A DNA stretch of 64,000 bases, taken from the NCBI GenBank assembly GCA_903912525.1, contig CAIWHK010000007.1, positions 22,563-86,562 of the forward strand, written 5' to 3'. The stretch is from an uncultured bacterium (GTDB lineage: Bacteria; Krumholzibacteriota; Krumholzibacteriia; LZORAL124-64-63). The notes beneath the pieces were generated by a model. The model was not told the DNA's origin, ran no database searches, and worked only from the letters and a program-made list of their open reading frames with translations. Positions 2,679 through 56,700 of this stretch are shown here, piece after piece (within the stretch, counting starts at the first letter, position 1; each line of letters starts with the position of its first letter). The position numbers were made by a program, and so were the translations under genes.

Positions 2679-5366
2679 GTGCCCATGACCTGCGCGCGCC
2701 TCCACGACGACCACATGCGCGACCTTCTGGACGCCATGGGCGATGCCGTGGCGCTTCTTGGCGTCGACGGGACCATCCTGGCGATCAACGAAGCCGGAGC
2801 CGCCCAGCTCGGCCTTCCGCGCGACGAATTGATCGGGCGCTGCTGCTACCACCTGATGCCGCCCGAGATGGCCGCCTGCCGCCGTCAAATCGCCGAAGAA
2901 GTCACGCGCACGGGCCAGCCGAGGCACTTCGTCGACATGGCCGGCGGGCACTACCAGGAACACCATGTGCGCCCCCTGCGGGACGTTGACGGGCGTGTCA
3001 CGCGCCTGGCCGTCCACGTCGCGGACGTCACCGACCTGTGCCGGGCCGACCGGGAGCGGCAGGTCAAGTCCCTCGAACTGGAAACCATCCACGCGCACGT
3101 GCCGGTCGGCATCCTCCTGCTCGATTCCGAGCGGCGGGTGACCAAGGCCAACGAGGCCGTCGCCCGGATGGCCGGGGCCCCGCGCGAGGAGATCCTCAAC
3201 CGCATCGGCGGCGCTGCGCTCGGCTGCCTCAACCACCTGGACGACGAGCGCGGCTGCGGGCACGGGCCCAACTGCGCCCGGTGTGAGCTGCGACTGGCCC
3301 TAGTCCATGCGCTCGAAAACGGCATTGTCATCAACGCGCTGCCCGTGGCCCTGCCGGTGGAAGGTCCCGCCGGGCGCGAGATCAAGCATGTGCTCGTGTC
3401 GGCCGCGCCCATCACCATCGACGGACGCCCCCAGGTGCTGGTGTCCCTGCAGGACATCACGCCATTGCGCCAGGCCGAGGCCGACGTCGCCTTCAAGGCG
3501 ATGGTGCTGGACCAGATCCAGGACCGCGTCACCGTCACCGACATGCAGGGCACCGTGGTCTACGTCAACAATGCGGCCTGCCGGTCGCTGAAGAAGGCGC
3601 GCGAGGACCTGGTCGGCCGGAGCGTGTCCGGACTCGGCGAGGATGCGGCGCGCGGCGCCACCCAGCGTGAGATCATCGAGGGCACCATCGCCAACGGCGC
3701 CTGGCAGGGCGAAGTCGTCAACATCGCGGCGGACGGCGCCCCGGTGCTGCTGCACTGCCGCACCTCGCTGATCCGCGACGAACAGGGCGCGCCGATCGGC
3801 ATGTGCGGGATCGCCACGGACATCACCGAGACGAAGCGTCGCGAGGAACAGCTGCGCGAGAGCGAGCGGCGCTTCCGCCGCCTTCACGAACAGTTGCCGA
3901 TCGGCTACTTCGGCCTGGACCGCGAGGGCTGCTATGTCGACGCCAATCCCGCCTGGCTGAACCTGCTGGGGCTTCCCCGCGAGCAGGTCGAGGGTAGCCG
4001 GTTCACCGACCTGCTGGACGACAGCCACCTGGAGCGGTTCGCCGCCGCTCGGGCCCGCGTGCAGGAGGGCGGCGAGGAGCAGTTCGAGTGCGAGATCCGG
4101 GGCGGTGACGGCAGGGCCGTCACTTTCTTCTGCGTCGACCGGGGCGGACTGGACGACCAGGGCGGCGTCGACGTGACCCACTGGGTCGCGGCCGACGTCT
4201 CCGAGCGGCGACGGCTGGAGGCCCAGCTCCGCCAGGCCCAGAAGCTGGATGCGCTCGGGCGGCTGGCCGCAGGCGTCTCCCACGACTTCAACAACCAGCT
4301 GACGGTCATCTCCGGCTACTGCGACATCCTGCTGGGCCAGGTCCCCGCGGAGAGCCCCCTGCGCCCGGCGCTCGGCCAGATCCGGCGCGCCACCGAGCGG
4401 GCCTCGTCCACCACCGGCCACCTGCTGTCGTTCAGCCGCAAGCGCGACCTGGCGCCGCGCGATGTCGACCTCAACGACCTCCTGCGCGACCTGCTCCACC
4501 CGGTCAGCAAGCTGATCGGCGAGACGATCCGCGTGCGTCTGGAACTGTCGCCCCGCCTGCGCACCGTCTGCGTGGACCCGGGCGCGCTGCAGCAGGCCAT
4601 CTTCAACCTGATCATCAACGCCCGCGACTCGATGCCCGACGGGGGCACCCTCGTACTGCGCACGGCCAACCGGCCCGCCCCCGCGACGGCGCCGGGCGCC
4701 GGCCTGGTGACCCTGACGGTAGAGGACAGCGGCCACGGGATCAGCGACGGCGACCTGGAGCATGTGTTCGAGCCCTTCTTCACCACGAAGGGCGAGGGAC
4801 AGGGCACGGGACTCGGCCTGCCGATGGTCCGTGGCTTCGCCGAACAGAGCAGCGGCCAGGTCGAGATCCAGAGCCGCCCGGGCGTGGGCACGACAGCGAC
4901 GATCGCCTTGCCGGCCACGGCCGCCGCCGGTTCACCAAACGAGCAGGCAGAAGCCGCAAGTGAGCCGGAGCGACTGGCGGGACGCTTCCTGGTGGTCGAA
5001 GACTCCGAGTCGGTCCGCGACCTGGTGGGCGATGTCCTGCGCCGACAAGGAGCCGAGGTCGTGATGGCCTCCTCGCCGGAAGAAGCCCTGAGACTGGCCG
5101 CCAGCGGCGCCCGCTTCGACATGGTGGTCACGGACATCGTGATGCCGGGCATGCGCGGCGACGAGATGGTGTCGCGCCTGGTCGCCGCCGGCCGCGTCGA
5201 CCGGGTTGTCTACATGTCCGGCTACCATGACAAACGGACCGCGTCGATGTCGGGCCCCCTGCTGAGCAAGCCCTTCGCCGTGCAGGAACTCGTCGACATG
5301 GTCCAGAGCGTCATGCAGGAACCAGCCGCCGTCGCGGCGTCCGGCGCCCCCGGGAGGCCGCTGTGA
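2679..5366 (+). CDS. Multi-PAS hybrid sensor histidine kinase with C-terminal receiver domain
   Basis: H-box SHDFNNQLTVI; HATPase motifs DSGHGI and GQGTGLGL; C-terminal receiver LVVEDSESVRDLV...DIVMPGMRGDEM...K; several PAS repeats. Confidence 0.85.
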   Translation: MPMTCARLHDDHMRDLLDAMGDAVALLGVDGTILAINEAGAAQLGLPRDELIGRCCYHLMPPEMAACRRQIAEEVTRTGQPRHFVDMAGGHYQEHHVRPLRDVDGRVTRLAVHVADVTDLCRADRERQVKSLELETIHAHVPVGILLLDSERRVTKANEAVARMAGAPREEILNRIGGAALGCLNHLDDERGCGHGPNCARCELRLALVHALENGIVINALPVALPVEGPAGREIKHVLVSAAPITIDGRPQVLVSLQDITPLRQAEADVAFKAMVLDQIQDRVTVTDMQGTVVYVNNAACRSLKKAREDLVGRSVSGLGEDAARGATQREIIEGTIANGAWQGEVVNIAADGAPVLLHCRTSLIRDEQGAPIGMCGIATDITETKRREEQLRESERRFRRLHEQLPIGYFGLDREGCYVDANPAWLNLLGLPREQVEGSRFTDLLDDSHLERFAAARARVQEGGEEQFECEIRGGDGRAVTFFCVDRGGLDDQGGVDVTHWVAADVSERRRLEAQLRQAQKLDALGRLAAGVSHDFNNQLTVISGYCDILLGQVPAESPLRPALGQIRRATERASSTTGHLLSFSRKRDLAPRDVDLNDLLRDLLHPVSKLIGETIRVRLELSPRLRTVCVDPGALQQAIFNLIINARDSMPDGGTLVLRTANRPAPATAPGAGLVTLTVEDSGHGISDGDLEHVFEPFFTTKGEGQGTGLGLPMVRGFAEQSSGQVEIQSRPGVGTTATIALPATAAAGSPNEQAEAASEPERLAGRFLVVEDSESVRDLVGDVLRRQGAEVVMASSPEEALRLAASGARFDMVVTDIVMPGMRGDEMVSRLVAAGRVDRVVYMSGYHDKRTASMSGPLLSKPFAVQELVDMVQSVMQEPAAVAASGAPGRPL

Positions 5367-29377: not shown

Positions 29378-30204
29378 TGAAGTCGGGCATCGGACGAATA
29401 GAAGCCCTATTGCTGGCCTACCTGCAGTTGCGGGGCATGAGGCTCGTCGAAGCCGGCGAGCTCGGGGAGCCCTTGCAACTGACGGCCGCCCAGGAGTGCG
29501 ACGCCCTGCGCCGGTTGGCGCGCGGCGGGCTGATCGCACGGGTGCGCCCTGGGCTGTACCTCGTTCCTGACCGGTTGCCGCTCGGCGGGGCCTGGACCCC
29601 GGACGAGGCGCTGGCGATCTCCTCGCTCATGGCCGATTGCGGCGGCACCTACCAGGTATGCGGCCCGAACGCCTTCCGTCGCCATGGCTTTTCTGACCAG
29701 GTGCCGATGCGGGTCTATGCCTACAACGACCGCATCTCCGGCGAGCGGACAATCGGCGCCGTCGCCTTGACGCTGATCAAGGTCAACGCGAAGCGTCTCG
29801 GCGATGTCGAAACGTTGCGCGGCGTTGACGGCGGCGAAATGGTCTATGCGTCGCGCGCGCGGACATTGGTCGACGCCGTATACGACTGGTCCCGCTTCAA
29901 CAGCCTGCCCCGCGCCTATGCGTGGATCCTCGACGATCTCGATGCCGGCCGCGTCGATCCGGCACGGCTGGTGCGTACAGCCCTCCGATTCGGGGACCTC
30001 GGCACACGCCGCCGCCTGGGCGTGCTGCTCGAGAGGGCCGGCGCACCGGAGAGCACGCTGGCGCGGCTCGAACGATCGCTGACGCCCTCATCGAGCCTGA
30101 TTCCGTGGATTCCCAGCCGCCCCAAGCGGGGCACAGTCAGCCGGCGCTGGGGGGTCCTGGTCAATGGACAGGTTGGCGAGTGGGGCGATACGGATCCTGG
30201 ATGA
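29378..30204 (+). CDS. AbiEi-family antitoxin / COG5340 transcriptional regulator (type IV TA)
   Basis: Probable TTG start after AAGGAG. N-terminal winged-helix-like region and C-terminal GAVALTLIKVNAKRLGDVETLRGVDGGEMVYASRARTLVDAVYDW typical of AbiEi. Its 3' end overlaps the AbiEii gene by 41 nt. Confidence 0.6.
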
Positions 30205-31081
30205 CCCGGCCCATTTCCGGAGCGCCGTTAACTATACGGCGGCAGTCACGGCGTTCCCTGTGGCACCCATCGAGAAGGACTTCTTCTGCACCCTTCTTCT
30301 GGAGCACCTGGCACGCAACGAACCTGACCTCGTCTTCAAGGGCGGAACCGCCCTGGCGAAAGTCCACGCTGGATTCTACCGATTGAGCGAGGACCTGGAC
30401 TTCACCCTTCCGATGCCGCTTGATTCCCCACGCTCGGCCCGCAGGCGGCGCATGGCCGGCATCCGTCGCGCGCTGGAAGGCATCGGCCGCGAATTGGCCG
30501 TCTTCCATTTGGCTGAGCCCCTGCGTGGCGCCAACAACTCGTCCCAATACTCGGCCACGGTCCGGTACCAGTCGCCATGCCTCGGATCGAGCGAAGACAT
30601 CAGACTCGACATATCCCTGAGGGAGCCACTGCTGACTCCCATCTATGCCGGGGCTGCGCAGACCATACTCCGCAACCCTGTCAATGGCAGCCGCATCATT
30701 CGCGATGTGCGCATCCCGTGCCTGTCGTGGCAGGAGTCGTGGGCCGAAAAGTTCCGCGCAGCGCTTTCGCGCCGGGATGTGGCCATTCGCGATTTCTACG
30801 ACATCGATGTTGCCGTCAGGCGGTGGAACCTGGACTCAGGCGCCGACGGGTTCGTCGCACTCGTACACCGGAAGCTATCGACTCCCGGATTCGAAAGACT
30901 GGAGCTTTCGTCGACGCGCCTGCGGTGCCTGAGAGCCCAGATCGACACGGAACTGCGACCCGTGCTCAGGCCCGTTGACTTCGAACCCTTCGACATGGAC
31001 AGGGCCGTCGACATCGTTGACGAGATGGCGAGGCGGATCCGCAAGATCGGACGCCAACGCCCAACCACCGGCACGGGATGA
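30164..31081 (+). CDS. AbiEii-family nucleotidyltransferase toxin (DUF1814), type IV TA
   Basis: EKDFFCTLLLEHLA...LVFKGGTALAKV...RLSEDLDF, the hallmark of AbiEii/DUF1814. The stop codon lies inside the REP copy at 31080-31099. Confidence 0.75.
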   Translation: MDRLASGAIRILDDPAHFRSAVNYTAAVTAFPVAPIEKDFFCTLLLEHLARNEPDLVFKGGTALAKVHAGFYRLSEDLDFTLPMPLDSPRSARRRRMAGIRRALEGIGRELAVFHLAEPLRGANNSSQYSATVRYQSPCLGSSEDIRLDISLREPLLTPIYAGAAQTILRNPVNGSRIIRDVRIPCLSWQESWAEKFRAALSRRDVAIRDFYDIDVAVRRWNLDSGADGFVALVHRKLSTPGFERLELSSTRLRCLRAQIDTELRPVLRPVDFEPFDMDRAVDIVDEMARRIRKIGRQRPTTGTG

Positions 31082-48591: not shown

Positions 48592-49690
48592 CTACCTCAG
48601 CCGCCCCCGAAACGCCCGCTGTGACTTGAGGATTTCCTGCCGCAACGCTTCCGTGTCCGGCAGCATGGTCAGGTAGCGCGAGGCAAAGACGTTGGCGGCG
48701 ATGCCGCCCATCGCGTAGTGGACGACGGCGTCGTTCTTGGCACTGCAGAGGATCAAGCCCACCGGTTCGTGTTCGTCGGGGCCCATGAGGTGTTCGCGGG
48801 CGTAGTTGAGGTAGAGGTTCATCTGGCCGGCGTCGGCGTGGCTGAACTTACCAAGCTTGAGGTCGACCACGACCAGGCAACGCAGGGCGCGGTGGTAGAG
48901 CAAGAGGTCGATGCGATACCACTCGTCGCCGATGCGGATGCGCTTCTGGCGGGCCACGAAGGTGAAGCCGGCTCCCAGTTCGAGCAGGAACGATTCAAGG
49001 TGGCGCACGATGGCGTCCTCGAGGTCGGACTCGCTGTACTCGTCCTTCAGGTCGAGGAACTCGAGGAGGTAGGGGTCGCGGATGTGGTCGCGCAGGGCGA
49101 CGGCATCCGGCGGGGATGGCTTCCTGGCGGACGTGAGCATGCGTTCGGGGTTGGACGAGGCCGAAACGCGCTCGAAGAACTGGGTGCTGATCTGCCTTTC
49201 CAGCTGCCGGACAGTCCAACCGCCGCGAATGGCTTCAGCTTCGTAGAGCGCGCGGGCCTGGGGGTCGCTGACAGACATCAGGCGGATGTAATGGGTCCAC
49301 GACAGGGGGAAGGAATGATGCATAACTGACGCATTTGCAGGCAGTTGTAATTTTACCATCACTGATGGTAAAATCTGATGACTGAGATAAAAAGATCTCA
49401 TTTTGTAAAGACTGGTCGGCGAGAACCCGCGCCCATGCTGGCGGGCCAAGTCGCGCCCCAGCCGCTGCAGCAACTCTTCCCCGTAGATGGCCCGCGGGTT
49501 TCCGTCCTGCTCGAATTCGACGATTCGCCGGCCAATCTCCCAATAGGTCGACACGATGACGCTGCTGGTCGTGCGCACCACGACGCGCCTGGCCTCGTCG
49601 ACCAGGCCGGAGATGCCGACATCAACTCACTGTAGGGCTCCGCACCAGCGGGGCCGGACATCGGCGCGGGGATCCCCGCGTCTTCAGACT
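48592..49690 (-). pseudogene. YhcG-family (DUF1016) nuclease paralog 1 with a -1 frameshift near the N-terminus
   Basis: The body 48592-49581 is intact (VVDLKLGKF PD-(D/E)XK motif). The N-terminal segment MVRKRKSEDAGIPAPMSGPAGAEPYSEL is in another frame; alignment with paralog 2 DNA shows a single-base deletion in copy 1. Contains the internal palindrome 49350-49374. Confidence 0.65.
49350..49374. repeat. AT-rich palindrome ATTTTACCATCA-C-TGATGGTAAAAT inside the YhcG paralog 1 CDS (minus-strand sense encodes QILPSVMVKLQ)
   Basis: Perfect 12+1+12 palindrome embedded in coding sequence. Confidence 0.8.
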
Positions 49691-49969
49691 TTCGTTTCCT
49701 GACCATGATTCCCGTCCCAATCTGCCGGATGTGCCGACGCGGTCCTGATGCCAACGTGGGTTCACGGATGCGGCGCGACGTGTCGCGGACGATATGCGCC
49801 TGCGGGACAACGTCGTGGCGAAGGTGCTGTCTGCGACGAACCGCACGCAGGGCACCAAACGGGCCGTTCCTGTGGAGTTGCACGGGTTGCGCGATGACGC
49901 CAATGGGGCAGCCACGCACGCATTCGCGGTGGCTATAGGGCAGGCGGCGGGCCAGATGGTGAATGAGGC

Positions 49970-49989
49970 AACTTGCGCCGGCGCAAGTC
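49970..49989. repeat. REP-like palindrome AACTTGCGCCGGCGCAAGTC
   Basis: Cassette array; followed 45 bp later by the AT-palindrome 50027-50060. Confidence 0.8.
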
Positions 49990-50026
49990 GGGCCCGTTAC
50001 CGGGCAACTGATTGCTGTTTTGCGAC

Positions 50027-50060
50027 TTGGAATTCTGCCAACAGTGTTGGCAGAATTGGG
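50027..50060. repeat. AT-palindrome family copy TTGGAATTCTGCCAACAGTGTTGGCAGAATTGGG (intergenic remnant, 45 bp downstream of REP 49970)
   Basis: Perfect 11+1+11 core with family-conserved flanks TTGGAATT...AATTGGGCAA. Minus-strand translation RFFAVLPNSANTVGRIPS resembles a YhcG N-domain segment. Confidence 0.75.
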
Positions 50061-50200
50061 CAATACAGCAAAAAATCGCTCATTGGGTGGGTCGCGCAAA
50101 GCTGGTGTCCCCACCGATCTCTCCTTCCCCCAGGGAGAATTCAGCCTGGTATTAGCCGTATCGCAGTATGAATGTCCTCCGCGCTTGTCCGCCGAGGCTC

Positions 50201-50277: not shown

Positions 50278-50351
50278 TTTCTTGGCGGCGATATCCGATC
50301 TGCATATACTCATTGAAGGCCGTACCTGCCTGGACTTCATCGGGGACTACC

Positions 50352-51434
50352 ATGACTGACACCCACGCATTCACGCCAAACTGGGCCTCTCCCCCCGGCA
50401 GTACGATTGCCGACCTGCTGGCCGAGCGCAGCCTGACCCAGGCGGACCTTGCCGACCGCACCGGCTACACGCGCAAGCACATCAACGAACTGGTGCGCGG
50501 CCGCGCGGCGATTTCGTTCGAAGCGGCCCTGAAGCTGGAGACCGTGCTGGGCTCGACGGCCGACTTCTGGATGCGCCGCGAAGTGCAGTACCGCGAGGCG
50601 CTGGCACGGCAGGAGCTCAACCGGCAGTTCAAGGCCTCGGCGCCCTGGCTCAGGCGGATTCCACTGGCAAGCATGGTGCGGCTCGGGTGGGTGGAGCGGT
50701 TCCCTGATTCCGGGCAGCAGGTGGCCGCCTGCCTGCGGTATTTCGGCGTGGCCACGGTCGAGGCCTGGGAAGCGACGTACGCGGAACCCCTGGCGGCCTT
50801 CCGCAGGTCACCCAACGCCGAGACGGCCGGCGCGGCGGCCGCAGCCTGGCTGCGACAGGGCGAACTGCAGGCGGCCGCCATCCGGACCGGGGACTACAGC
50901 GCGTCCGGGTTGCGCGCGTGCCTGCCCCGACTGCGGCAGCTCACGCTGCTCACCGACCCCGACGCATTCGTACCCGCACTGACCGGCATGTGCGCGGAAG
51001 TGGGCATCGCCGTCGTGTTCGTGCCCACGCCGCAGGGATGTCCCGCCTACGGCGCCACGCGGTGGCTCTCTCCCACCAAGGCGCTGCTGATGCTCAGCAA
51101 CCGCACCAAGACCCACGATGTGCTGTGGTTCACCTTCTTCCATGAGATCTGCCACCTGCTGCACCACAGCAAGAAGATGACCGTCATCGAGGGCGGCCGG
51201 AGCCTGGACGCCGGCCTCGAGGAAGAGGCCGACACGTTTGCCGCCCACATCCTGATTCCGCCGGCGGACGCGCGCCGCATCGAGGAATTGCCCCGCAACG
51301 CGGATGCCATTGCTTCGTTCGCCCGTGAGATCGGGGTTGCGCCGGGGATCGTGCTGGGGCGGATGCAGAAGATGGGGCTGATCGGCTGGTCCAGGTGTGG
51401 GGAGTTGAAGGTCAGGTATGAGATCGGCGGGTGA
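50352..51434 (+). CDS. Xre-type HTH fused to ImmA/IrrE-family (COG2856) metallopeptidase domain (HigA2/ImmA-like)
   Basis: N-terminal HTH (LTQADLADRTGYTRKHINELVRG); C-terminal FFHEICHLLHH HExxH motif typical of ImmA/IrrE. Confidence 0.75.
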   Translation: MTDTHAFTPNWASPPGSTIADLLAERSLTQADLADRTGYTRKHINELVRGRAAISFEAALKLETVLGSTADFWMRREVQYREALARQELNRQFKASAPWLRRIPLASMVRLGWVERFPDSGQQVAACLRYFGVATVEAWEATYAEPLAAFRRSPNAETAGAAAAAWLRQGELQAAAIRTGDYSASGLRACLPRLRQLTLLTDPDAFVPALTGMCAEVGIAVVFVPTPQGCPAYGATRWLSPTKALLMLSNRTKTHDVLWFTFFHEICHLLHHSKKMTVIEGGRSLDAGLEEEADTFAAHILIPPADARRIEELPRNADAIASFAREIGVAPGIVLGRMQKMGLIGWSRCGELKVRYEIGG

Positions 51435-51440
51435 CCTGGC

Positions 51441-51460
51441 CACTTGCGCCGGCGCAAGTC
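51441..51460. repeat. REP-like palindrome CACTTGCGCCGGCGCAAGTC
   Basis: 7 bp after the ImmA stop; followed by the AT-palindrome 51497-51530. Confidence 0.8.
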
Positions 51461-51496
51461 CGGCCGGATCGCGCCTAAGCGATTGATTTCCCGCTC

Positions 51497-51530
51497 TTTG
51501 GAATTTTATCATCACTGATGAGAATATTGG
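51497..51530. repeat. AT-palindrome family copy TTGGAATTTTATCATCACTGATGAGAATATTGGG
   Basis: Imperfect arms (2 mismatches); 37 bp downstream of REP 51441. Confidence 0.7.
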
Positions 51531-51546
51531 GCAACGCCGGCAGGCC

Positions 51547-52182
51547 CTACCGATAGCAGTCATGGAACCACTCGGGTCCAAGCCGGATGAACGTGTTCAC
51601 GGCAGCCGCGAGTCTCGCACCGGGCGCCGCACTGGCCGCCAGGACCCTCTTGCCATGCGCCCGCACAGCATCGACGGCTGGCGTGAAGTCGCCATCGGCC
51701 GACAGCAGGTACGCGGTATCGAATTCGTCGCGCTCGGCCATCACGACCATGTCGACGGCCAGAAAGACATCAACGGCTTTTTCGACATAGGCCGTGGCAC
51801 GCATGTTCCGCCGCGCGATGTCATACAGGTCCCGGTAAACCTGCTGGTCGATGCGCGTGGACAATGTCGTGAGATAGTCCTTGAGTTCCCTGGCCGCGTT
51901 GTCAGTCACCGGGCGTGACTCGAGGCGCCCGAAGTGCACGCTGATCTTCGGCGACGATGCCCTGAGAGCGGCAATGAACCTGCGCTGGGCCGCATAGAGT
52001 GCCAGACTGCTTCGTTGCTCGACCTGGCCTACGTAGTACCTGGTGGCGCACCACTGCCGCGGCCCGACGAGCTTGCGCGAAATCACCCCATAGTCGAGCC
52101 GACCCAAGTCGGCGATGCCATGCTGCTTGGCGCCGTGATACCAGTTGTTGCCATCGATGAAGAGCACTGCGCGTTCAGCCAC
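51547..52182 (-). CDS. NYN-domain (LabA-like) predicted RNase
   Basis: VLFIDGNNWYH and VDVFLAVDMVVMAERDEFDTAYLLSADGDF motifs. Probable GTG start. A deleted version of this cassette is present at 55110-55320. Confidence 0.6.
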   Translation of the reverse strand: MAERAVLFIDGNNWYHGAKQHGIADLGRLDYGVISRKLVGPRQWCATRYYVGQVEQRSSLALYAAQRRFIAALRASSPKISVHFGRLESRPVTDNAARELKDYLTTLSTRIDQQVYRDLYDIARRNMRATAYVEKAVDVFLAVDMVVMAERDEFDTAYLLSADGDFTPAVDAVRAHGKRVLAASAAPGARLAAAVNTFIRLGPEWFHDCYR

Positions 52183-52194
52183 GGCGCCGACCCA

Positions 52195-52236
52195 AAAGAA
52201 AAACCCCGGCGTGTGGCTGAGCCAGACCCCGGGGGG
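52195..52236 (-). terminator. Terminator-like hairpin plus T-run (minus strand) immediately upstream of the NYN gene; same element as 55215-55260
   Basis: CCCCGG-cgtgtggctgagccagac-CCGGGG stem followed on the minus strand by TTTTTCTTTT. Confidence 0.35.
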
Positions 52237-52675
52237 ATAAAACACCCGGTCCCGTGGGATCCGAGCGACCCGCAGTATACACAGGGCTGGGCTGCCGTGT
52301 CAACTGCAGTGGCGAAGCGCTAAAGAAGAGCCCTCCGGGGCGCCACCAGAAGGGGGTCAACCGGCTCAGCAAGCCGGGCTGGGGTTGATACGCATTCAGT
52401 TGCGATCTGATCGCGGGGCGGGTCAAGGGCGATTCCCTCTTTGGCGCTGGAGTGGGCCGGCGCGGTCGAGAATGCAAGGACCCCGCCCGGCGGCGTCCTT
52501 GTCGCTGCGCCAGTGCACAAGTAGTCGCGCAACTGCCGCGTCGTTTGCGCGTCATGACGGCCAAGTTCCGAAAGCCCCCGGGCGAGGTGCCATGCACCTT
52601 GCGAGCCCACCGCAAATACATGTCATGCTCCGTTGACAGCTTCATGGGAGATGGCGCCCGCCGTCTTCACTTGCC

Positions 52676-52695
52676 GACTTGCGCCGGCGCAAGTT
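52676..52695. repeat. REP-like palindrome GACTTGCGCCGGCGCAAGTT
   Basis: 14 bp downstream of the YhcG2 stop. Confidence 0.8.
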
Positions 52696-52708
52696 CCCTA
52701 CCCCCACG

Positions 52709-53824
52709 TCAGCGCAACCGCCCCAGAAACGCCCTCTGCGTCCGAATGATCTCCTGCCGCAGCGACTCCGTGTCCGGCAGCACCGTCAGGTAGCGCGAGG
52801 CGAAGACGTTCGCGGCGATGCCGCCCATCGCGTAGTGGACGACGGCGTCGTTCTTCGCGCTGCAGAGAATCAAGCCCACCGGCTCGTGCTCGTCGGGGCC
52901 CATGAGGTGCTCGCGCGCGTAGTTGAGGTAGAGGTTCATCTGGCCGGCGTCGGCGTGCGTGAACTTGCCGAGCTTGAGGTCGACCACGACCAGGCAGCGC
53001 AGCGCGCGGTGGTAGAGCAAGAGGTCGATGCGGTACCACTCGTCGCCGATGCGGATGCGCTTCTGCCTCGCCACGAACGTGAAGCCGGCGCCCAGTTCGA
53101 GCAGGAACGATTCGAGGTGGCGGACGATGGCGTCCTCGAGATCGGACTCGCTGTACTCATCCTTCAGGTCGAGGAACTCGAGGAGGTACGGGTCGCGGAT
53201 GTGGTGCTGCAGTTCGGCGGGGTCGACAGGCGCGGGCTTGCGCGCGGCGGCGAGCATGCGGTCGGGGTTGGCGGACGCGGTGACGCGCTCGAAGAACTGC
53301 GTGCTGATCTGGCGGTCGAGCTGGCGGACGGACCAGCCGGAGCGGATAGCTTCGGATTCGTAGAGGGTGCGGGCGGCGTGGTTTTCGACGGACATCAGAC
53401 GGACGTAATGTGACCACGAAAGGGGGAAGGAAATGGGCGTAACTGACGACTCATCAAGTGTTTGTAATTTTCTCGACACTGTCGAGAATATCTGCAATTC
53501 CAGATAAAAACATCTCATTTTGTAAAGTCCCGGCCTGGAGAATCCCCTGCCGTATCGGCTGGACAGATCGCGCCCCAGACGCGTGAGCAACTCTTCGCCA
53601 TACTCGGCGCGGACACGCCCACCCTGTTCATATTCGACGATTCGGCGTCCGATTTCCCAGTACGCCGACACGACGACGCTTTGCGTCGATCGCACGACAG
53701 AGCGCCGGGCCTCTTCCAGTAGGCCGGAGATTCCCGTCACCAGTTCTCCGTAGGGCTCCGCGCCGGATGCACCGGACGTCGGTGCGGGGACCCTCGCGTC
53801 CCGAGGCTTTCGATTCCTGGCCAT
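52709..53824 (-). CDS. YhcG-family (DUF1016) nuclease, paralog 2 (intact)
   Basis: About 88% protein identity to paralog 1 across the body; contains the internal palindrome 53467-53492. Confidence 0.7.
   Translation of the reverse strand: MARNRKPRDARVPAPTSGASGAEPYGELVTGISGLLEEARRSVVRSTQSVVVSAYWEIGRRIVEYEQGGRVRAEYGEELLTRLGRDLSSRYGRGFSRPGLYKMRCFYLELQIFSTVSRKLQTLDESSVTPISFPLSWSHYVRLMSVENHAARTLYESEAIRSGWSVRQLDRQISTQFFERVTASANPDRMLAAARKPAPVDPAELQHHIRDPYLLEFLDLKDEYSESDLEDAIVRHLESFLLELGAGFTFVARQKRIRIGDEWYRIDLLLYHRALRCLVVVDLKLGKFTHADAGQMNLYLNYAREHLMGPDEHEPVGLILCSAKNDAVVHYAMGGIAANVFASRYLTVLPDTESLRQEIIRTQRAFLGRLR
53467..53492. repeat. AT-rich palindrome AATTTTCTCGACA-C-TGTCGAGAATAT inside the YhcG paralog 2 CDS (sense encodes QIFSTVSRKLQ)
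   Basis: 1 arm mismatch; same codon position as in paralogs 1 and 3 but a different half-site sequence. Confidence 0.8.
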
Positions 53825-54087
53825 GCTTCCCATTCCCATCTGCCGGATGTACCGACGCGGTCCAGATGCCAACGAGAGTTCACGGAAGAGGCGCGATGTG
53901 TCGCGGGTGATGGGCGCCTGCGGTGCGACGTCGGGGATGAATCATTGCCGACGACAAACCACATTCGCGGCGCCAATCGAGCCTTTCCTAGGGAGATGCC
54001 GGCGCTGGGCGGCGGCGCCGATTAGGCGGCCACGCACACACAGCGATGGCCATTGAGGCAGGCGGCAGGCCAGATGGTGAACGTGGC

Positions 54088-54107
54088 GACGTGCGCCGGC
54101 GCAAGTC
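54088..54107. repeat. REP-like palindrome GACGTGCGCCGGCGCAAGTC
   Basis: Cassette array; followed by the AT-palindrome 54145-54177. Confidence 0.8.
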
Positions 54108-54144
54108 AGCCCGATTTCGGCGCAAACAGTTGTCGCGGCGTGAC

Positions 54145-54177
54145 TTGGAATTTTACCATCACTGATGGTAAAATTGG
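54145..54177. repeat. AT-palindrome family copy TTGGAATTTTACCATCACTGATGGTAAAATTGG (intergenic remnant)
   Basis: Core identical to the YhcG1 internal palindrome. Flanking 30 bp on both sides align to the YhcG1 3' end and to the YhcG1 sequence next to its palindrome, so this looks like an internally deleted yhcG copy. Confidence 0.75.
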
Positions 54178-54400
54178 CCAAAACAGAAAACAATCTCACA
54201 TCAAGCAACATCGGCACGCACTGCTGCGCGCTACCGCGAGGCCGTGAACACACATCCAATCGGTGCCGCCCTGGCGAAGAACGCGCCCCTGTGCCCACTC
54301 CTGGCGGCGCTCCCAGCCGCCCACCTCAGAACGCCGGACCAAGCAGACCGGCCGATCCGGGCACAACTGCTGCCTACAAATGGTCGCGAACCGCCGCACC

Positions 54401-54420
54401 GACTTGCGCCGGCGCAAGTC
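54401..54420. repeat. REP-like palindrome GACTTGCGCCGGCGCAAGTC (perfect)
   Basis: Cassette array; followed by the AT-palindrome 54457-54490. Confidence 0.85.
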
Positions 54421-54456
54421 GACGGCCTTCGACATAACTGGTTCCAAAACAATCAA

Positions 54457-54490
54457 TTGGAATTTTCCCGACAGTGTCGGGAAAATCTGA
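54457..54490. repeat. AT-palindrome family copy TTGGAATTTTCCCGACAGTGTCGGGAAAATCTGA, about 45 bp upstream of the AbiEi-like gene 54534
   Basis: Perfect 11+1+11 core. Confidence 0.75.
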
Positions 54491-54533
54491 CGGCAGGCAC
54501 AGCCCTGCACATAACTAAATCTTGGGTTAAGTT

Positions 54534-55127
54534 TTGTGCATGGACACCAAGACACAAAGCCACCGCGCCGGCCCCAGCTGGGACCAGCTCTACGAAACCG
54601 CTGCCGCCCAGGCCGGCCACTTCACGACGGCCCAGGCCGAGGCCGCGGGGTACTCGCCCCAGCTGCTGGCCAAGTACCTGGCCAACGGGCGTGTGGTCAG
54701 GGTGCGTCGCGGCGTGTACCGCCTCACCCATTTTCCGGCGGGCGAACTCGAGGAGTTCGCCGTCGTGTGGCTGTGGAGCGAGCGGGCCGGGGTCTTTTCG
54801 CATGAGACGGCGCTGTTTCTGCATGGGCTGTCCGATGCGCTGCCGTCACGAGTCCACCTGACGCTGCCCGCGGATTGGCGTCGGCGAAGGCTGCGCGTAC
54901 CGGATGGCGTCGCGACGCACTTCGGCGAGGTGGCCGGTGCGGATCGCGGCTGGGTGGGCCCGGTGCCTGTGACCGCTGTTGCGCGGACGCTCGTCGATTG
55001 TGCGGAGGCCGGGGTTGCGCCGGAGATGGTGCGCGATGCCATGGAGCAGGCGATCGAGCGTGGGATGATTCGCAAGGGATCAGTGCCGCGACTTGCGCCG
55101 GCGCAAGTCCGGCCGGATCGCGCCTAA
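54534..55127 (+). CDS. AbiEi-like (COG5340) antitoxin/regulator, orphan; C-terminus encoded by a REP copy
   Basis: WDQLYETAAAQAGHFTTAQAEAAGYSPQLLAKYLANGRVVRVRRGVYRL winged-helix N-domain typical of AbiEi. The last residues LAPAQVRPDRA are translated from REP 55090-55109. Confidence 0.5.
   Translation: MCMDTKTQSHRAGPSWDQLYETAAAQAGHFTTAQAEAAGYSPQLLAKYLANGRVVRVRRGVYRLTHFPAGELEEFAVVWLWSERAGVFSHETALFLHGLSDALPSRVHLTLPADWRRRRLRVPDGVATHFGEVAGADRGWVGPVPVTAVARTLVDCAEAGVAPEMVRDAMEQAIERGMIRKGSVPRLAPAQVRPDRA
55090..55109. repeat. REP-like palindrome GACTTGCGCCGGCGCAAGTC (perfect)
   Basis: Forms the 3' end of the AbiEi-like ORF 54534-55127; followed by the AT-palindrome 55147-55180. Confidence 0.85.
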
Positions 55128-55145
55128 GCGATTGATTTTCCGCGC

Positions 55146-55320
55146 CTTGGAATTTTATCATCACTGATGAGAATATTGGGCAAAGCCGATCAGGTCCTGG
55201 CGATATCAGCAATGGAACCACTCGAGGCCAAAAGAAAAACCCCGGCGTGTGGCCAAGCCAGACCCCGGGGGGATTAAGGTGCCCGGTCCCGTGGAATCCG
55301 AGCGGCTGTAAGTATAGCCG
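55146..55320. other. Deletion derivative of the 51441-52300 cassette: REP, AT-palindrome, about 25 bp of NYN 3' end, then the terminator hairpin; the NYN ORF is precisely missing
   Basis: 55090-55205 aligns to 51441-51565 and 55206-55320 aligns to 52190-52300, with about 640 bp absent in between. Confidence 0.6.
55147..55180. repeat. AT-palindrome family copy TTGGAATTTTATCATCACTGATGAGAATATTGGG (duplicate of 51497-51530)
   Basis: Part of the duplicated cassette 55090-55320. Confidence 0.7.
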
Positions 55321-55357
55321 ATGCCCAAATGCCGCAGCAACTCCCACCGCCGACTGA

Positions 55358-56152
55358 TCACACATCGCCTTCCTCCACGCCCCCCACCAGTCCCACCGGC
55401 ACGATCAACCGCCACCTGCGGACGAGTCGGCCTCCGCGCGCGCGGTCGAGGTGCACCGGCTGGGCCGGCAGCAGCGACTGCAGGCTGGCCAGGGTCGCGT
55501 CGGGCACGGCCAGTTCGCGCTGGCGGGTGTCGAGCAAGAAGCCGACCCTCGACGCGAGCGTGCGGTTGGCGAGGACGCGGACGTACGCGAGCAGCGCGTC
55601 CGGGTCGATGGCCGGGATCGCCATCAGCGAGCGCCACACCTCGTCGAGGCCGCCGGCAATCGATGGCCGGTCGAGAACGTCGGCCACCGTGCGCTCGAGG
55701 CTGGTCACGCGCACTTCGAGTCCATTGCGGTCCAGGACGTCGATCCACGCCTGCTGCGGGTGGCGCGCGCGCAACTCGCACCGCGGCTGCACCGGCGACA
55801 GGCGGCGGCCCCGGAACGTGGCGGCACGGGCTCGCGTCCAGGTGATGAACGTGAAATTGTCGGACAGGCTCTGCGCACAACCGTGCGCCTCGAGCGCCGT
55901 GTGGTAGGCGGCGGCCGCGTCCGGCGCCATGCGGGCGGCCAGCGCGATGTAATCGGGGGTTGGCTCCCAGGGCTCCGTTGACCCCGGCGGACGACCGACA
56001 TACAGGCCGCTCTTCACGCGCAGCAACCGGCCCTGGCGTACCCAGCGGGCGAGGTGGGCATCGACGGTGGCAGGAGCGCGACCGGGGAGCGCGGCGATCA
56101 GCTCGTCGCGGGTGAAGAGCGGGGTCGTGGCCAGGAAGTGGTCCGGCTTCAT
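55358..56152 (-). CDS. AbiEi-like (COG5340) antitoxin/regulator, orphan
   Basis: MKPDHFLATTPLFTRDELIAALPGRAPATVDAHLARWVRQGRLLRVKSGLYV N-domain typical of the family; GGGAGG RBS. Confidence 0.5.
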   Translation of the reverse strand: MKPDHFLATTPLFTRDELIAALPGRAPATVDAHLARWVRQGRLLRVKSGLYVGRPPGSTEPWEPTPDYIALAARMAPDAAAAYHTALEAHGCAQSLSDNFTFITWTRARAATFRGRRLSPVQPRCELRARHPQQAWIDVLDRNGLEVRVTSLERTVADVLDRPSIAGGLDEVWRSLMAIPAIDPDALLAYVRVLANRTLASRVGFLLDTRQRELAVPDATLASLQSLLPAQPVHLDRARGGRLVRRWRLIVPVGLVGGVEEGDV

Positions 56153-56162
56153 GTTAGTGCCT

Positions 56163-56194
56163 CCCAATATTTGCAATTTATTACAAATTATGGG
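56163..56194. promoter_or_regulatory. Imperfect 32-bp palindrome CCCAATATTTGCAATTTATTACAAATTATGGG overlapping RBS/5' UTR of the AbiEi-like gene 55358-56152; candidate autoregulatory operator
   Basis: Inverted repeat immediately upstream of the start codon. AbiEi proteins are known to autoregulate through inverted repeats. Confidence 0.35.
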
Positions 56195-56294: not shown

Positions 56295-56314
56295 GACTTG
56301 CGCCGGCGCAAGTC
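56295..56314. repeat. REP-like palindrome GACTTGCGCCGGCGCAAGTC (perfect); last copy in the window
   Basis: Followed by the AT-palindrome 56351-56384. No copies are found in the lower-GC island beyond 56.7 kb. Confidence 0.85.
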
Positions 56315-56384: not shown

Positions 56385-56499
56385 ACCATACCGAAAGAAA
56401 TCCCACCCAGCCCACCTCGGCCGCGCCAGCTCGCTCCGCCGGCCACCACCACCCGGCCCGGCGAGCCCAGCGCACCCTGGCCGCACCCCCACCCACCAC

Positions 56500-56700
56500 A
56501 ACCGCAGCACCTGACGAGGCCCCCCCGACCCGGACGCGTTCGGGCCCGCCCTGGCCGGCAGGTGCGCGGAGGTGGGCGTCGCCGTCGTGATCGTGCCCGC
56601 GCCGCAGGGGTGTCCGGCGGGCGGGGCCTCGCGGTGGCTGGCACGCGCCAGGGCGCTGGTGATGGCTGGTGGCCGGACCAGGAGCGGCGTCATGTCGTAA
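56500..56700 (+). pseudogene. Fragment of a second ImmA/IrrE-family gene
   Basis: Translation DPDAFGPALAGRCAEVGVAVVIVPAPQGCPAGGASRWL aligns to DPDAFVPALTGMCAEVGIAVVFVPTPQGCPAYGATRWL of the intact gene 50352-51434; the peptidase HExxH region is missing. Confidence 0.45.

What the first reader, a model, noticed from the sequence alone, without database searches (positions are those of the whole stretch)
51441..55320. Duplicated cassette with and without its gene: precise excision of the NYN ORF in the second copy
Segment 55090-55205 matches 51441-51565 (REP, spacer, palindrome, last 25 bp of the NYN gene). Segment 55206-55320 matches 52190-52300 (the hairpin with A-run immediately 5' of the NYN gene). 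The 640-bp NYN ORF body is cleanly missing at a short ggtcc/gaccc/aggcc microhomology. In the first copy the hairpin-T-run sits directly upstream of the NYN gene. In the second copy the same hairpin serves as the terminator of the AbiEi-like gene. This amounts to an occupied and an empty cassette site in the same array.
Basis: seen in the sequence. Interest (0 to 1): 0.55.

Follow-up and report, generated by a model that had tools for sequence, protein, structure and literature searches.

The report
Ribonuclease gene remnant keeps its leader RNA
The second copy is a decayed duplicate of a small NYN ribonuclease module that lost its coding region in a 614-bp deletion; the piece that survives is the gene's own promoter and a structured leader RNA that precedes this gene family in many bacteria, with a related hairpin in archaea, and that matches no Rfam family.

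Summary
Window 51439-51581 matches 55088-55231 (89.6%, E 9e-49). Window 52192-52267 matches 55228-55304 (89.6%, E 4e-22). The two matches abut in copy 2 at a CCAA microhomology, and 614 bp are missing: the NYN ORF from 9 nt upstream of its start to 35 nt before its end.

This is not a cassette excision. No integrase and no attC-like sites were found, and the 'REP' palindrome lies between ordinary genes across 48 kb. The deletion is internal and leaves a piece of the gene's tail.

The 'hairpin with A-run' is not a generic terminator. On the minus strand it is a sigma-70-type promoter followed by a ~73-nt RNA: a P1 hairpin with a YNMG tetraloop, a linker, and a P2 terminator of near-invariant sequence. 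The same RNA sits directly upstream of NYN homologues in 46 bacterial loci, with covariation support. A related hairpin precedes archaeal NYN genes. Rfam 15 has no match.

Two close relatives carry a single intact RNA-NYN module next to the same AbiEi gene, so the 'empty' site was once occupied.

Most likely function (inferred): the RNA controls or neutralises the NYN RNase, either as an attenuator or in a type III toxin-antitoxin-like way. Copy 2 is an ORF-less remnant that still folds correctly.

The parts
51441..51460 (.). REP palindrome (ACTTGCGCCGGCGCAAGT core) at the 3' flank of the intact module
   Evidence: The 14-nt core occurs 22 times in the window against about 1 expected, spread over 8.8-56.3 kb.
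51498..51527 (+). 'pal' palindrome (TTGGAATTTTATCATCACTGATGAGAATAT), part of a REP-pal unit homologous to the interior of YhcG genes
   Evidence: There are 8 plus-strand copies, all within 49.3-56.4 kb, against 0 expected. They align with YhcG-internal sequence.
51547..52182 (-). Intact NYN (PF01936, LabA-like) ribonuclease gene, 211 aa, GTG start
   Evidence: Pfam NYN 2e-18 over the full domain. PADLOC HEC-09 1e-22. 93% amino-acid identity to L001.
51578..52195 (.). Stretch bounded by the two CCAA repeats; 614 bp of it are absent from copy 2
   Evidence: In the relative L001 the same two positions carry a 9-nt direct repeat, CCGGCCCAA.
52195..52273 (-). NYN leader RNA, copy 1: P1 hairpin (about 52243-52267) with a CACG tetraloop, a linker, the P2 terminator stem (52204-52234) and a U-tract
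   Evidence: Covariance model R1 scores it 80.3 bits, E 3e-17. MFE fold -36.7 kcal/mol, z -3.6, 83% of the ensemble. Covariation is counted.
52274..52303 (-). Sigma-70-type promoter TTGACA-18-TATACT driving the leader RNA and NYN
   Evidence: 11 of 12 consensus positions match. A TTGAC hexamer sits just upstream of the RNA in 42 of 45 homologous loci, against a 3.9% background.
55090..55109 (.). REP palindrome of copy 2; it overlaps the 3' end of the plus-strand AbiEi gene (..RLAPAQV..)
55147..55176 (+). 'pal' palindrome of copy 2, identical to the copy-1 pal
55197..55231 (-). Remnant of the last 35 nt of an NYN gene (reads ..GLEWFHC*; 28 of 35 nt identical to copy 1; the original stop is lost)
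55231..55310 (-). NYN leader RNA, copy 2 (no ORF follows); the P1 and P2 pairings are all intact
   Evidence: R1 scores it 73.2 bits, E 1.6e-15. It has the same fold as copy 1, -34.2 kcal/mol, z -2.6. Only 2 of 42 stem positions differ from copy 1, and both changes keep the pair.
55311..55340 (-). Degraded promoter of copy 2: -10 TATACT kept, -35 TTGCTG (3 of 6)
   Evidence: Read from the sequence. 21 of 39 positions identical to copy 1. It falls below the promoter scan threshold.
55358..56176 (-). AbiEi-family gene directly upstream of copy 2 on the same strand; in relatives it is the upstream neighbour of the intact NYN module
   Evidence: Pfam AbiEi_4 and AbiEi_1. PADLOC AbiEi 5e-69. Synteny with relatives.

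Best explanation
The unit is a one-gene module: promoter, then a ~73-nt structured RNA that ends in an intrinsic terminator, then an NYN-domain ribonuclease gene. Copy 1 (51547-52303, minus strand) is intact.

Copy 2 (55197-55340) is a diverged second copy. A 614-bp deletion between short direct repeats removed the start codon and about 200 of the 211 codons. The repeat is CCAA here and a 9-nt CCGGCCCAA in a relative. What remains is the last 35 nt of the gene, the complete leader RNA and a weakened promoter. The event looks like ordinary replication slippage or microhomology-mediated deletion, not site-specific cassette excision.

Shown here:
- the homology, the junction and the missing ORF;
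- the promoter match;
- the RNA secondary structure and its covariation;
- its position directly upstream of an NYN gene at every hit in the NYN loci;
- the single intact arrangement in two relatives.

Inferred function: most transcripts stop at P2, which yields a stable short RNA with a 5' hairpin and a 3' terminator hairpin. Read-through yields the NYN mRNA. The near-invariant P2 sequence, including two conserved internal mismatches, is probably the site the NYN protein recognises. The RNA would then do one of two things. It could let the RNase limit its own expression (a cis attenuator or autoregulatory leader, about 0.4). Or it could be made in excess and hold the RNase inactive, as in type III toxin-antitoxin systems (about 0.35).

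Copy 2 would then be either a neutral relic or a free-standing source of that RNA. Transcription could come from its weak promoter or from AbiEi read-through.
For: Homology and junction.

Gene identity: Pfam NYN 2e-18 and PADLOC HEC-09 1e-22.

Promoter: 11 of 12 consensus positions. TTGAC lies upstream of the RNA in 42 of 45 loci, against a 3.9% background.

RNA motif:
- It is visible upstream of NYN homologues in about 50 loci.
- RNAalifold recovers P1 and P2.
- The covariance model finds exactly two copies in the 64-kb window, both at the sites in question.
- It finds 46 copies in 1.2 Mb of NYN loci, every one directly upstream of the NYN gene on the same strand.
- Of 21 pairs, 88.8% of cells are paired and 15 pairs show changes on both sides. 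No shuffle out of 500 reaches this, and slid controls give 32-57% paired.
- G-U pairs are frequent on the sense strand, which points to RNA rather than duplex DNA.
- Archaeal NYN genes carry a related 5' hairpin, one per paralogue where checked.

Both window copies fold into the same P1/P2 structure.

Relatives L001 and L081 each have one intact module next to the same AbiEi gene. L001 has a 9-nt direct repeat at the two deletion endpoints.

The stems of copy 2 changed at 2 of 42 positions, against 25 of 74 in the flanking gene tail and promoter (Fisher p 2e-4).
Against: - No expression data exist. The promoter, the termination at P2 and the short RNA are all predictions.
- The history of the two copies is not resolved. 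The REP-pal part of copy 2 is closer to copy 1 (94 of 99) than to the relatives (87 of 99). The RNA and promoter of copy 1 are nearly identical to the relatives, while those of copy 2 are not. This implies gene conversion or import of one copy.
- The CCAA microhomology is only 4 nt in the sequences available for this genome.
- The type III analogy lacks the tandem RNA repeats that define known type III antitoxins.
- The HEC-09 NYN candidate gave no phage defence in the one published test (bioRxiv 10.1101/2024.01.29.577857).
- The conservation of copy 2's stems could date from before the deletion, so it does not prove that the remnant is functional.
- Read coverage could not be checked.
Confidence: 0.8

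Rival explanations
1. Site-specific cassette excision: the NYN ORF is a mobile cassette that a recombinase removed from an array, leaving an empty site.
For: Repeated REP and pal elements flank many genes in 48.5-56.7 kb. Gene order differs from the relatives at REP copies.
Against: The breakpoints lie inside the ORF (35 nt before its end) and 9 nt upstream of the start codon, not at REP or pal. About 45 window ORFs were scanned and none carries an integrase, transposase or RAYT domain. No RYYYAAC..GTTRRRY pair occurs in 48.4-57 kb. REP is spread over 48 kb between chemotaxis, peptidase, deacetylase and other ordinary genes.
Confidence: 0.03
2. Assembly artefact: copy 2 is a chimeric or collapsed join of repeat-containing reads.
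For: The region is rich in repeats. No read data were available, and no other contig shows the copy-2 junction (one search found only an intact relative).
Against: Copy 2 differs from copy 1 by about 10% on both sides of the junction, and from the relatives by 11-15%. It therefore cannot be built from copy-1 reads. Its flanks (AbiEi plus and AbiEi minus) are unique sequence.
Confidence: 0.04
3. Reverse polarity: copy 2 is the original state (RNA and REP-pal only), and the NYN ORF was inserted into copy 1.
For: Apart from the coding remnant in copy 2, which is counted against this reading below, the two states alone do not give a direction.
Against: Copy 2 holds 35 nt homologous to the NYN coding end, still reading ..EWFH... 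The RNA sits directly in front of an NYN ORF at all 46 hits in the bacterial loci and at the archaeal copies examined. Both relatives have the intact gene at that position.
Confidence: 0.02
4. The ORF-less copy is kept by selection as a stand-alone RNA gene, for example an extra dose of an RNA that neutralises the NYN RNase, and is not a neutral relic.
For: All stem pairs are intact and the linker still fits the family consensus. The model score is 73 bits against 80 for copy 1. Stems changed at 2 of 42 positions against 25 of 74 in the flanks. The -10 hexamer is intact, and the RNA lies downstream of AbiEi on the same strand. Two ORF-less copies of the same RNA occur on IMG/VR contigs: L082 (70.9 bits, followed by only 13 NYN codons) and L083 (50.8 bits). 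This recalls phage-borne pseudo-ToxI, which is my own knowledge of the ToxIN literature and was not tested here.
Against: The constraint may predate a recent deletion. The -35 hexamer is degraded (3 of 6). No orphan copy was seen in 1.2 Mb of flanks around NYN genes. The 'viral' status of L082 and L083 is a database label only.
Confidence: 0.3

Closest known systems
Type III toxin-antitoxin systems (ToxIN, CptIN, TenpIN)
   Same: The order of parts is the same: promoter, non-coding RNA, intrinsic terminator, endoribonuclease-type gene. In those systems the terminator sets an excess of RNA over protein. Single-gene modules of this kind are found in defence contexts, and ORF-less RNA copies occur on IMG/VR contigs labelled viral.
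   Different: The RNA here is a single unit (P1-linker-P2) and not a tandem array of 34-47-nt repeats. The protein is a NYN/PIN-like fold, not ToxN/AbiQ-like. Neither toxicity nor neutralisation has been shown.
Autoregulatory leaders of ribonuclease genes (rne 5' UTR, rnc and pnp leaders; Rfam rne-II and Actino-pnp)
   Same: A conserved structured 5' leader sits in front of an RNase gene. Sequence-conserved stems suggest recognition by the encoded enzyme.
   Different: Here the leader ends in a full intrinsic terminator before the ORF and has its own 5' hairpin. There is no sequence or structure similarity to those families (no Rfam match).
HEC-09 (Hma-embedded candidate 09), a NYN-domain candidate defence protein in PADLOC
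   Same: The window protein matches the HEC-09 model at 1e-22. In Vicinamibacterales loci L002 and L011 the module sits between a SNF2 helicase and an MmeI/Eco57I-type methylase.
   Different: The paper's passages on HEC-09 and NYN describe no RNA, and a text search of it found no 'ncRNA' or 'non-coding'. HEC-09 is described with an extra N-terminal domain, and no defence was detected against the phages tested.
Integron gene cassettes and attC sites
   Same: Short genes are separated by repeated palindromic elements, and gene order varies between relatives.
   Different: There is no IntI, no attC core sites, and the repeats are spread between ordinary genes across the window. The deletion endpoints are unrelated to the repeats.
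REP/BIME-type intergenic palindromes
   Same: The element is a 20-nt perfect GC-rich palindrome, present in many intergenic copies, often just after stop codons.
   Different: No RAYT transposase was seen in the window. Some copies are overlapped by ORF ends. In 49-56 kb the REP is coupled to a second palindrome that derives from YhcG genes.

Membership tests
NYN domain family (Pfam PF01936, LabA-like) | Full-length match to the NYN profile above the curated cut-off | tested here: met
   67.7 bits against a cut-off of 24.2; profile positions 1-143 of 145.
NYN domain family (Pfam PF01936, LabA-like) | Conserved acidic residues (FIDGNN.., ..SGDxDF..) | tested here: met
   LFIDGNNWYHG and LLSADGDFTPAV are present in the translation. 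Catalysis itself was not tested.
PADLOC HEC-09 candidate defence protein | Match to the HEC-09 HMM | tested here: met
   E 1e-22, 78.8 bits, but in two stretches covering only part of the profile.
PADLOC HEC-09 candidate defence protein | Embedded within an Hma (helicase-methylase-ATPase) system | tested here: not met
   In the window the gene lies between REP-pal units, XRE-ImmA and YhcG genes. It is met only in the distant homologous loci L002 and L011.
Type III toxin-antitoxin system | Promoter, non-coding RNA, Rho-independent terminator, then the toxin gene, all on one strand | tested here: met
   These are predictions from sequence and covariation, not transcript data.
Type III toxin-antitoxin system | Antitoxin made of tandem direct RNA repeats that the toxin processes | tested here: not met
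   The RNA is a single P1-linker-P2 unit. No tandem repeat is visible in 52190-52310 or in the homologous leaders.
Type III toxin-antitoxin system | Toxin of the ToxN/CptN/TenpN (AbiQ-like) fold | tested here: not met
   The protein is NYN/PIN-like.
Type III toxin-antitoxin system | Protein is toxic and is neutralised by the RNA | not testable with these tools
   This needs expression of NYN with and without the RNA.
Integron cassette array | IntI tyrosine recombinase with attI and Pc nearby | tested here: not met
   No integrase domain among the ~45 window ORFs scanned. Only 64 kb could be seen.
Integron cassette array | attC sites with an inverse core RYYYAAC and a core GTTRRRY at cassette borders | tested here: not met
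   No such pair within 40-130 nt in 48.4-57 kb on either strand.
Integron cassette array | Cassette loss occurs exactly at attC borders | tested here: not met
   The deletion endpoints lie inside the ORF and in the leader-to-start spacer.
Any Rfam 15 RNA family | Score at or above a family's gathering threshold | tested here: not met
   No hit at gathering thresholds in the window. The best sub-threshold hit is anti-hemB at 19 bits against 49.5. Nothing at E<=0.1 in 48.4-57 kb.
REP (repetitive extragenic palindrome) elements | Short GC-rich palindrome in many intergenic copies | tested here: met
   22 copies against about 1 expected; most lie between ORFs.
REP (repetitive extragenic palindrome) elements | Associated RAYT (IS200/IS605-like) transposase | tested here: inconclusive
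   None was found in the window. The rest of the genome was not available.

The most novel reading that the evidence does not exclude
The conserved promoter-RNA-terminator-NYN unit could be a previously unrecognised RNA-protein toxin-antitoxin or abortive-infection family, type III-like but with a single-unit RNA and a NYN/PIN-like RNase. It would span many bacterial phyla and, in a simpler hairpin form, DPANN archaea. ORF-less copies of the RNA, such as window copy 2 and those on two IMG/VR contigs, would then be functional antidotes or decoys.
Probability: 0.25. Interest if true: 0.8.

Novelty: new variant of a known kind. Interest (0 to 1): 0.55.

Why it matters
The gene loss itself is routine pseudogenisation in a defence and toxin-antitoxin island.

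What it exposed is more useful. NYN/LabA-like RNases are a large family whose prokaryotic function is essentially unknown. One branch, HEC-09, is already listed as a candidate phage-defence gene that showed no activity when tested.

This subfamily comes with a sequence-conserved structured RNA and its own promoter and terminator. That gives a concrete, testable handle: the RNA is a candidate regulator, inhibitor or substrate of the enzyme. It may also explain a negative defence test, if stoichiometry or host factors matter.

The ORF-less copies offer natural experiments on whether the RNA acts in trans.

Tried and rejected
- **Source genome.** An exact-protein look-up of the NYN product (211-aa and 232-aa versions) found nothing on record. 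The source genome is not in the collections, so nothing beyond the window could be examined.
- **Rfam.** Searches at gathering and at permissive thresholds found no family for the leader or anything else in 48.4-57 kb. No tRNA was found.
- **Literature.** Searches for an NYN-associated RNA motif or an NYN type III system found nothing relevant. Only the HEC-09 preprint and the PIN-superfamily classification were useful, and neither passage read mentions an RNA.
- **Metagenome scan.** A 26-mer shared by both window copies found one contig, an intact relative, and no second example of the deletion junction.
- **Extra viral-contig scans.** Scans for the A-U stem variant and for the GUCUGC variant found nothing. 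The archaeal-type pattern gave 8 hits. No NYN homologue was detected on any of them (tblastn, E<=1e-3), and only L084 resembles the archaeal motif by eye.
- **Solved structures.** No solved structure is close by sequence.
- **Unexplained spacers.** Pfam on the ORFs in the 52.3-52.7 kb and 54.0-54.5 kb spacers found nothing.
- **Hairpin as a reusable terminator module.** Rejected, because the covariance model hits only NYN-adjacent sites in the NYN loci.
- **Integron reading.** Rejected; see the membership tests.
- **Start-codon-sequestering hairpin.** An alternative hairpin of this kind appears in folds of copy 1 and L001. By eye it did not look conserved in other loci, so I did not build on it.
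Full report
**1. The observation**

I read 51000-55800, ran repeat detection and a blastn self-comparison.

- Window 51439-51581 matches 55088-55231 at 89.6% over 144 nt (E 9e-49).
- Window 52192-52267 matches 55228-55304 at 89.6% over 77 nt (E 3.6e-22).
- In copy 2 the two matches overlap by CCAA (55228-55231). In copy 1 the same tetranucleotide sits at 51578-51581 and at 52192-52195.
- So 614 bp present in copy 1 are absent from copy 2.

The missing stretch is a minus-strand ORF with a full-length Pfam NYN match (2e-18). Its likely start is GTG 52182 and its stop is at 51547. Copy 2 keeps the last 35 nt of that gene (28 of 35 identical, still reading ..EWFH..). It has lost everything from 9 nt upstream of the start codon onwards.

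A junction microhomology of 4 nt or more is expected in only about 1-2% of random joins. That figure is my own calculation, not a tool result.

**2. The surroundings**

The 'REP' palindrome (core TTGCGCCGGCGCAA) occurs 22 times between 8.8 and 56.3 kb, against about 1 expected. It lies between ordinary genes: histidine kinases, CheW/MCP, a sigma factor, a deacetylase, peptidases and FG-GAP proteins.

About 45 ORFs were scanned and none carries an integrase, transposase or RAYT domain. No attC-like core-site pair exists in 48.4-57 kb. This is not an integron.

The stretch 39-60 kb does look like a defence and toxin-antitoxin island. It holds:
- a SNF2/SWIM helicase;
- three YhcG/DUF1016 genes (the one scanned against PADLOC matches PDC-S02);
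- an XRE-ImmA gene;
- the NYN gene;
- two AbiEi genes;
- a GmrSD gene.

A larger duplication, 48598-50083 vs 52715-54201 (78.7%), and an ImmA fragment at 56419-56664 show that the island has been rearranged repeatedly.

**3. What the hairpin is**

On the minus strand, 52303 to 52274 is a near-consensus promoter, TTGACA-18-TATACT (11 of 12). The sequence from about 52267 to 52195 folds into two hairpins followed by a U-tract. The fold is -36.7 kcal/mol, z -3.6, and makes up 83% of the ensemble. The NYN start codon follows 13 nt later.

I fetched 80 loci that encode NYN homologues. The same leader is visible upstream of the gene in Acidobacteriota, Gemmatimonadota, Myxococcota, Planctomycetota, Fermentibacteria, Binatia, Eisenbacteria and a Lysobacteraceae MAG. 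Its parts are:

- **P1:** a hairpin of variable sequence capped by a YNMG tetraloop (CACG, UACG, CAAG, UAAG, UUCG).
- **Linker:** UUYAYC.
- **P2:** CCCCGG-G/U-GUCUGG..loop..CCACAC-G-CCGGGG, then U5-8.

RNAalifold recovers P1 and P2. A covariance model (R1) gives these results:

- Exactly two full-length (sense-strand) copies in the window, at 52195-52273 (80.3 bits) and 55231-55310 (73.2 bits).
- 46 copies in 1.2 Mb of NYN loci, every one directly upstream of the NYN gene on its strand, with no stray copy.

Covariation on the model alignment:
- 88.8% of cells are paired.
- 15 of 21 pairs show changes on both sides.
- No shuffle out of 500 reaches the observed values.
- Slid controls give 32-57% paired.
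- G-U pairs are common on the sense strand, which points to RNA rather than DNA structure.

A TTGAC -35 hexamer lies just upstream of the RNA in 42 of 45 loci, against a 3.9% background, followed in most by a TAnnnT-like -10 about 17 nt downstream. The RNA therefore has its own promoter and begins at P1.

In DPANN archaea a related hairpin (CCCCGGUAUGAC-GNRA-GGAAUGCCGGG) lies 20-60 nt upstream of 15 of 22 NYN genes. In many of these loci a TTTAAATA-type box precedes it. Tandem NYN paralogues each have their own copy.

P2 is more conserved than the protein, which is 55-66% identical across phyla. Two internal mismatches of P2 are conserved as well. This suggests sequence-specific recognition, most simply by the NYN protein itself; that is an inference.

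Rfam 15 has no match. Literature searches found no description of the RNA. The HEC-09 preprint, whose PADLOC model matches this protein at 1e-22, describes the protein only and found no defence against the phages tested.

**4. What copy 2 is**

Copy 2 keeps the whole RNA. Relative to copy 1 it has 8 substitutions and one 1-nt insertion:
- Two are in P1. C-G becomes U-G and G-U becomes G-C, so both keep the pair.
- Two are in the P2 loop.
- The rest are in the linker, which still fits the family consensus (UUAAUCC also occurs in L017 and L026).

Copy 2 folds identically to copy 1. Its stems changed at 2 of 42 positions, against 25 of 74 in the adjoining gene tail and promoter (Fisher p 2e-4).

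Its -10 hexamer is intact (TATACT, 55316 to 55311). Its -35 is degraded (TTGCTG). The AbiEi gene at 55358-56176 ends 18 nt upstream of it on the same strand.

**5. Relatives**

Two relatives were found:
- L001, a MAG contig with 93% amino-acid identity in NYN.
- L081, a metagenome contig found with a 26-mer from the leader.

Both show a single arrangement: YhcG, REP-pal, intact NYN, leader and promoter, about 115 nt, REP, then the same AbiEi gene, REP-pal and an ImmA part. So the position occupied by the ORF-less copy in the window is occupied by an intact module in relatives.

In L001 the two deletion endpoints carry a 9-nt direct repeat, CCGGCCCAA. This makes slippage or microhomology-mediated deletion a natural mechanism.

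The history of the two window copies is mosaic:
- The REP-pal segments of copies 1 and 2 are closer to each other (94 of 99) than to the relatives (83-87 of 99).
- The 8-nt spacer of copy 2 equals that of the relatives.
- The RNA and promoter of copy 1 are 97-100% identical to the relatives, while those of copy 2 are 89% and 54% identical to copy 1.

Gene conversion, or import of one copy from another strain, is needed to explain this. I could not resolve the order of events.

**6. Mechanism**

Shown: the architecture of promoter, P1-linker-P2 RNA, U-tract and NYN ORF. Also shown: its conservation, its covariation, and its position directly in front of the gene at every hit in the NYN loci.

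Inferred:
- P2 terminates most transcripts, which gives a stable short RNA bounded by hairpins at both ends.
- Read-through gives the NYN mRNA.
- NYN recognises P2.

The two readings I consider most likely are:
- a cis-acting attenuator or autoregulatory leader of an RNase gene, about 0.4;
- a type III toxin-antitoxin-like pair in which excess RNA holds the RNase in check, about 0.35.

The second shares the order of parts with ToxIN. It lacks that system's defining tandem repeats and its toxin fold, so I do not file this module as a member.

Two IMG/VR contigs carry the RNA without a functional NYN gene: L082 (70.9 bits, followed by only 13 NYN codons) and L083 (50.8 bits). This recalls phage-borne pseudo-antitoxin RNAs. 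It rests on two contigs and a database label.

**7. Verdict**

The finding as stated is real but ordinary: a gene remnant from a microhomology deletion in a rearranging defence island. The 'cassette excision' interpretation is not supported.

The interest lies in what the remnant preserved. It is a conserved leader RNA of NYN RNase genes that matches no Rfam family, and I found no description of it in the literature available to me.

Noticed in passing
window 49345-49374 and 53462-53491 (inside YhcG genes); 50027, 51498, 54145, 54457, 55147, 56352 (intergenic): A 30-nt palindrome ('pal') lies inside two intact YhcG/DUF1016 genes, where it encodes I(L/F)xxVxxKLQ. It also lies in six intergenic REP-pal units that align with about 100 nt of the YhcG interior. 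The stems differ between copies by compensatory changes even though these alter the peptide. On the plus strand it reads as a sigma-70-like promoter (TTGGAA-18-TAAAAT), which is antisense inside YhcG. The intergenic units look like YhcG relics that always keep this piece.
   Followed up: partly
window 55093, 52679, 56298; L001 about 3306-3325: Breaks in synteny between the window and its relatives fall exactly at REP copies. ORFs run into REP (..LAPAQV..) at the end of AbiEi(+) in the window and at the end of AbiEi(-) in L001. The window's AbiEi(-) has a different C-terminus and no REP. REP may act as a recombination junction.
   Followed up: partly
L082 3199-3280(-); L083 5444-5513(-): Two IMG/VR contigs carry the NYN leader RNA without a functional NYN gene. 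L082 keeps only the first 13 codons, near tail-fibre-like and IS1595-like (ISXO2-type) transposase-like ORFs as judged by eye. L083 has no NYN at all.
   Followed up: partly
L058 9949-9976 and 11994-12020; L067 1062-1088; 15 of 22 archaeal loci: DPANN archaeal NYN genes have a related 5' hairpin, CCCCGGUAUGAC-GNRA-GGAAUGCCGGG, preceded in many loci by a TTTAAATA-type box. Tandem NYN paralogues each carry one.
   Followed up: partly
L002 6251-14662; L011 6298-14809: In Vicinamibacterales genomes the RNA+NYN module is embedded between a SNF2-type helicase and an MmeI/Eco57I-type methylase. This is the Hma-embedded context that defined HEC-09.
   Followed up: partly
window 48598-50083 vs 52715-54201: A 1.5-kb duplication (78.7% identity) covers a YhcG gene, its upstream region and a REP-pal unit. 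The YhcG genes of the relatives are also only about 80-82% identical to either copy, so this gene evolves fast or is swapped between strains.
   Followed up: no
window 56419-56664 vs 50848-51092: A fragment of an XRE-ImmA (Peptidase_M78) gene, 73.6% identical to the intact gene at 50313-51434, follows the REP-pal unit at 56298.
   Followed up: no
window 52314-52675: About 360 nt lie between the NYN promoter and REP 52679 with no Pfam or Rfam hit. The stretch ends in a terminator-like hairpin (52353 to 52331, minus strand). The relatives have about 115 unrelated nt here. Its nature is unknown.
   Followed up: partly
window 54534-55127(+) and 55358-56176(-); 30164-31081(+): Both AbiEi-family genes in the island lack an adjacent AbiEii partner. 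The only AbiEii-like gene seen in the window is 24 kb away.
   Followed up: no
window 52170-52225(-); L001 3500-3565: In folds of copy 1 and L001 the 3' arm of P2 can instead pair with the region around the NYN start codon (CAGCCACACGCCGG / CCGGCGCCGUGGCUG). This would sequester the GUG start. By eye it did not look conserved in more distant loci.
   Followed up: partly
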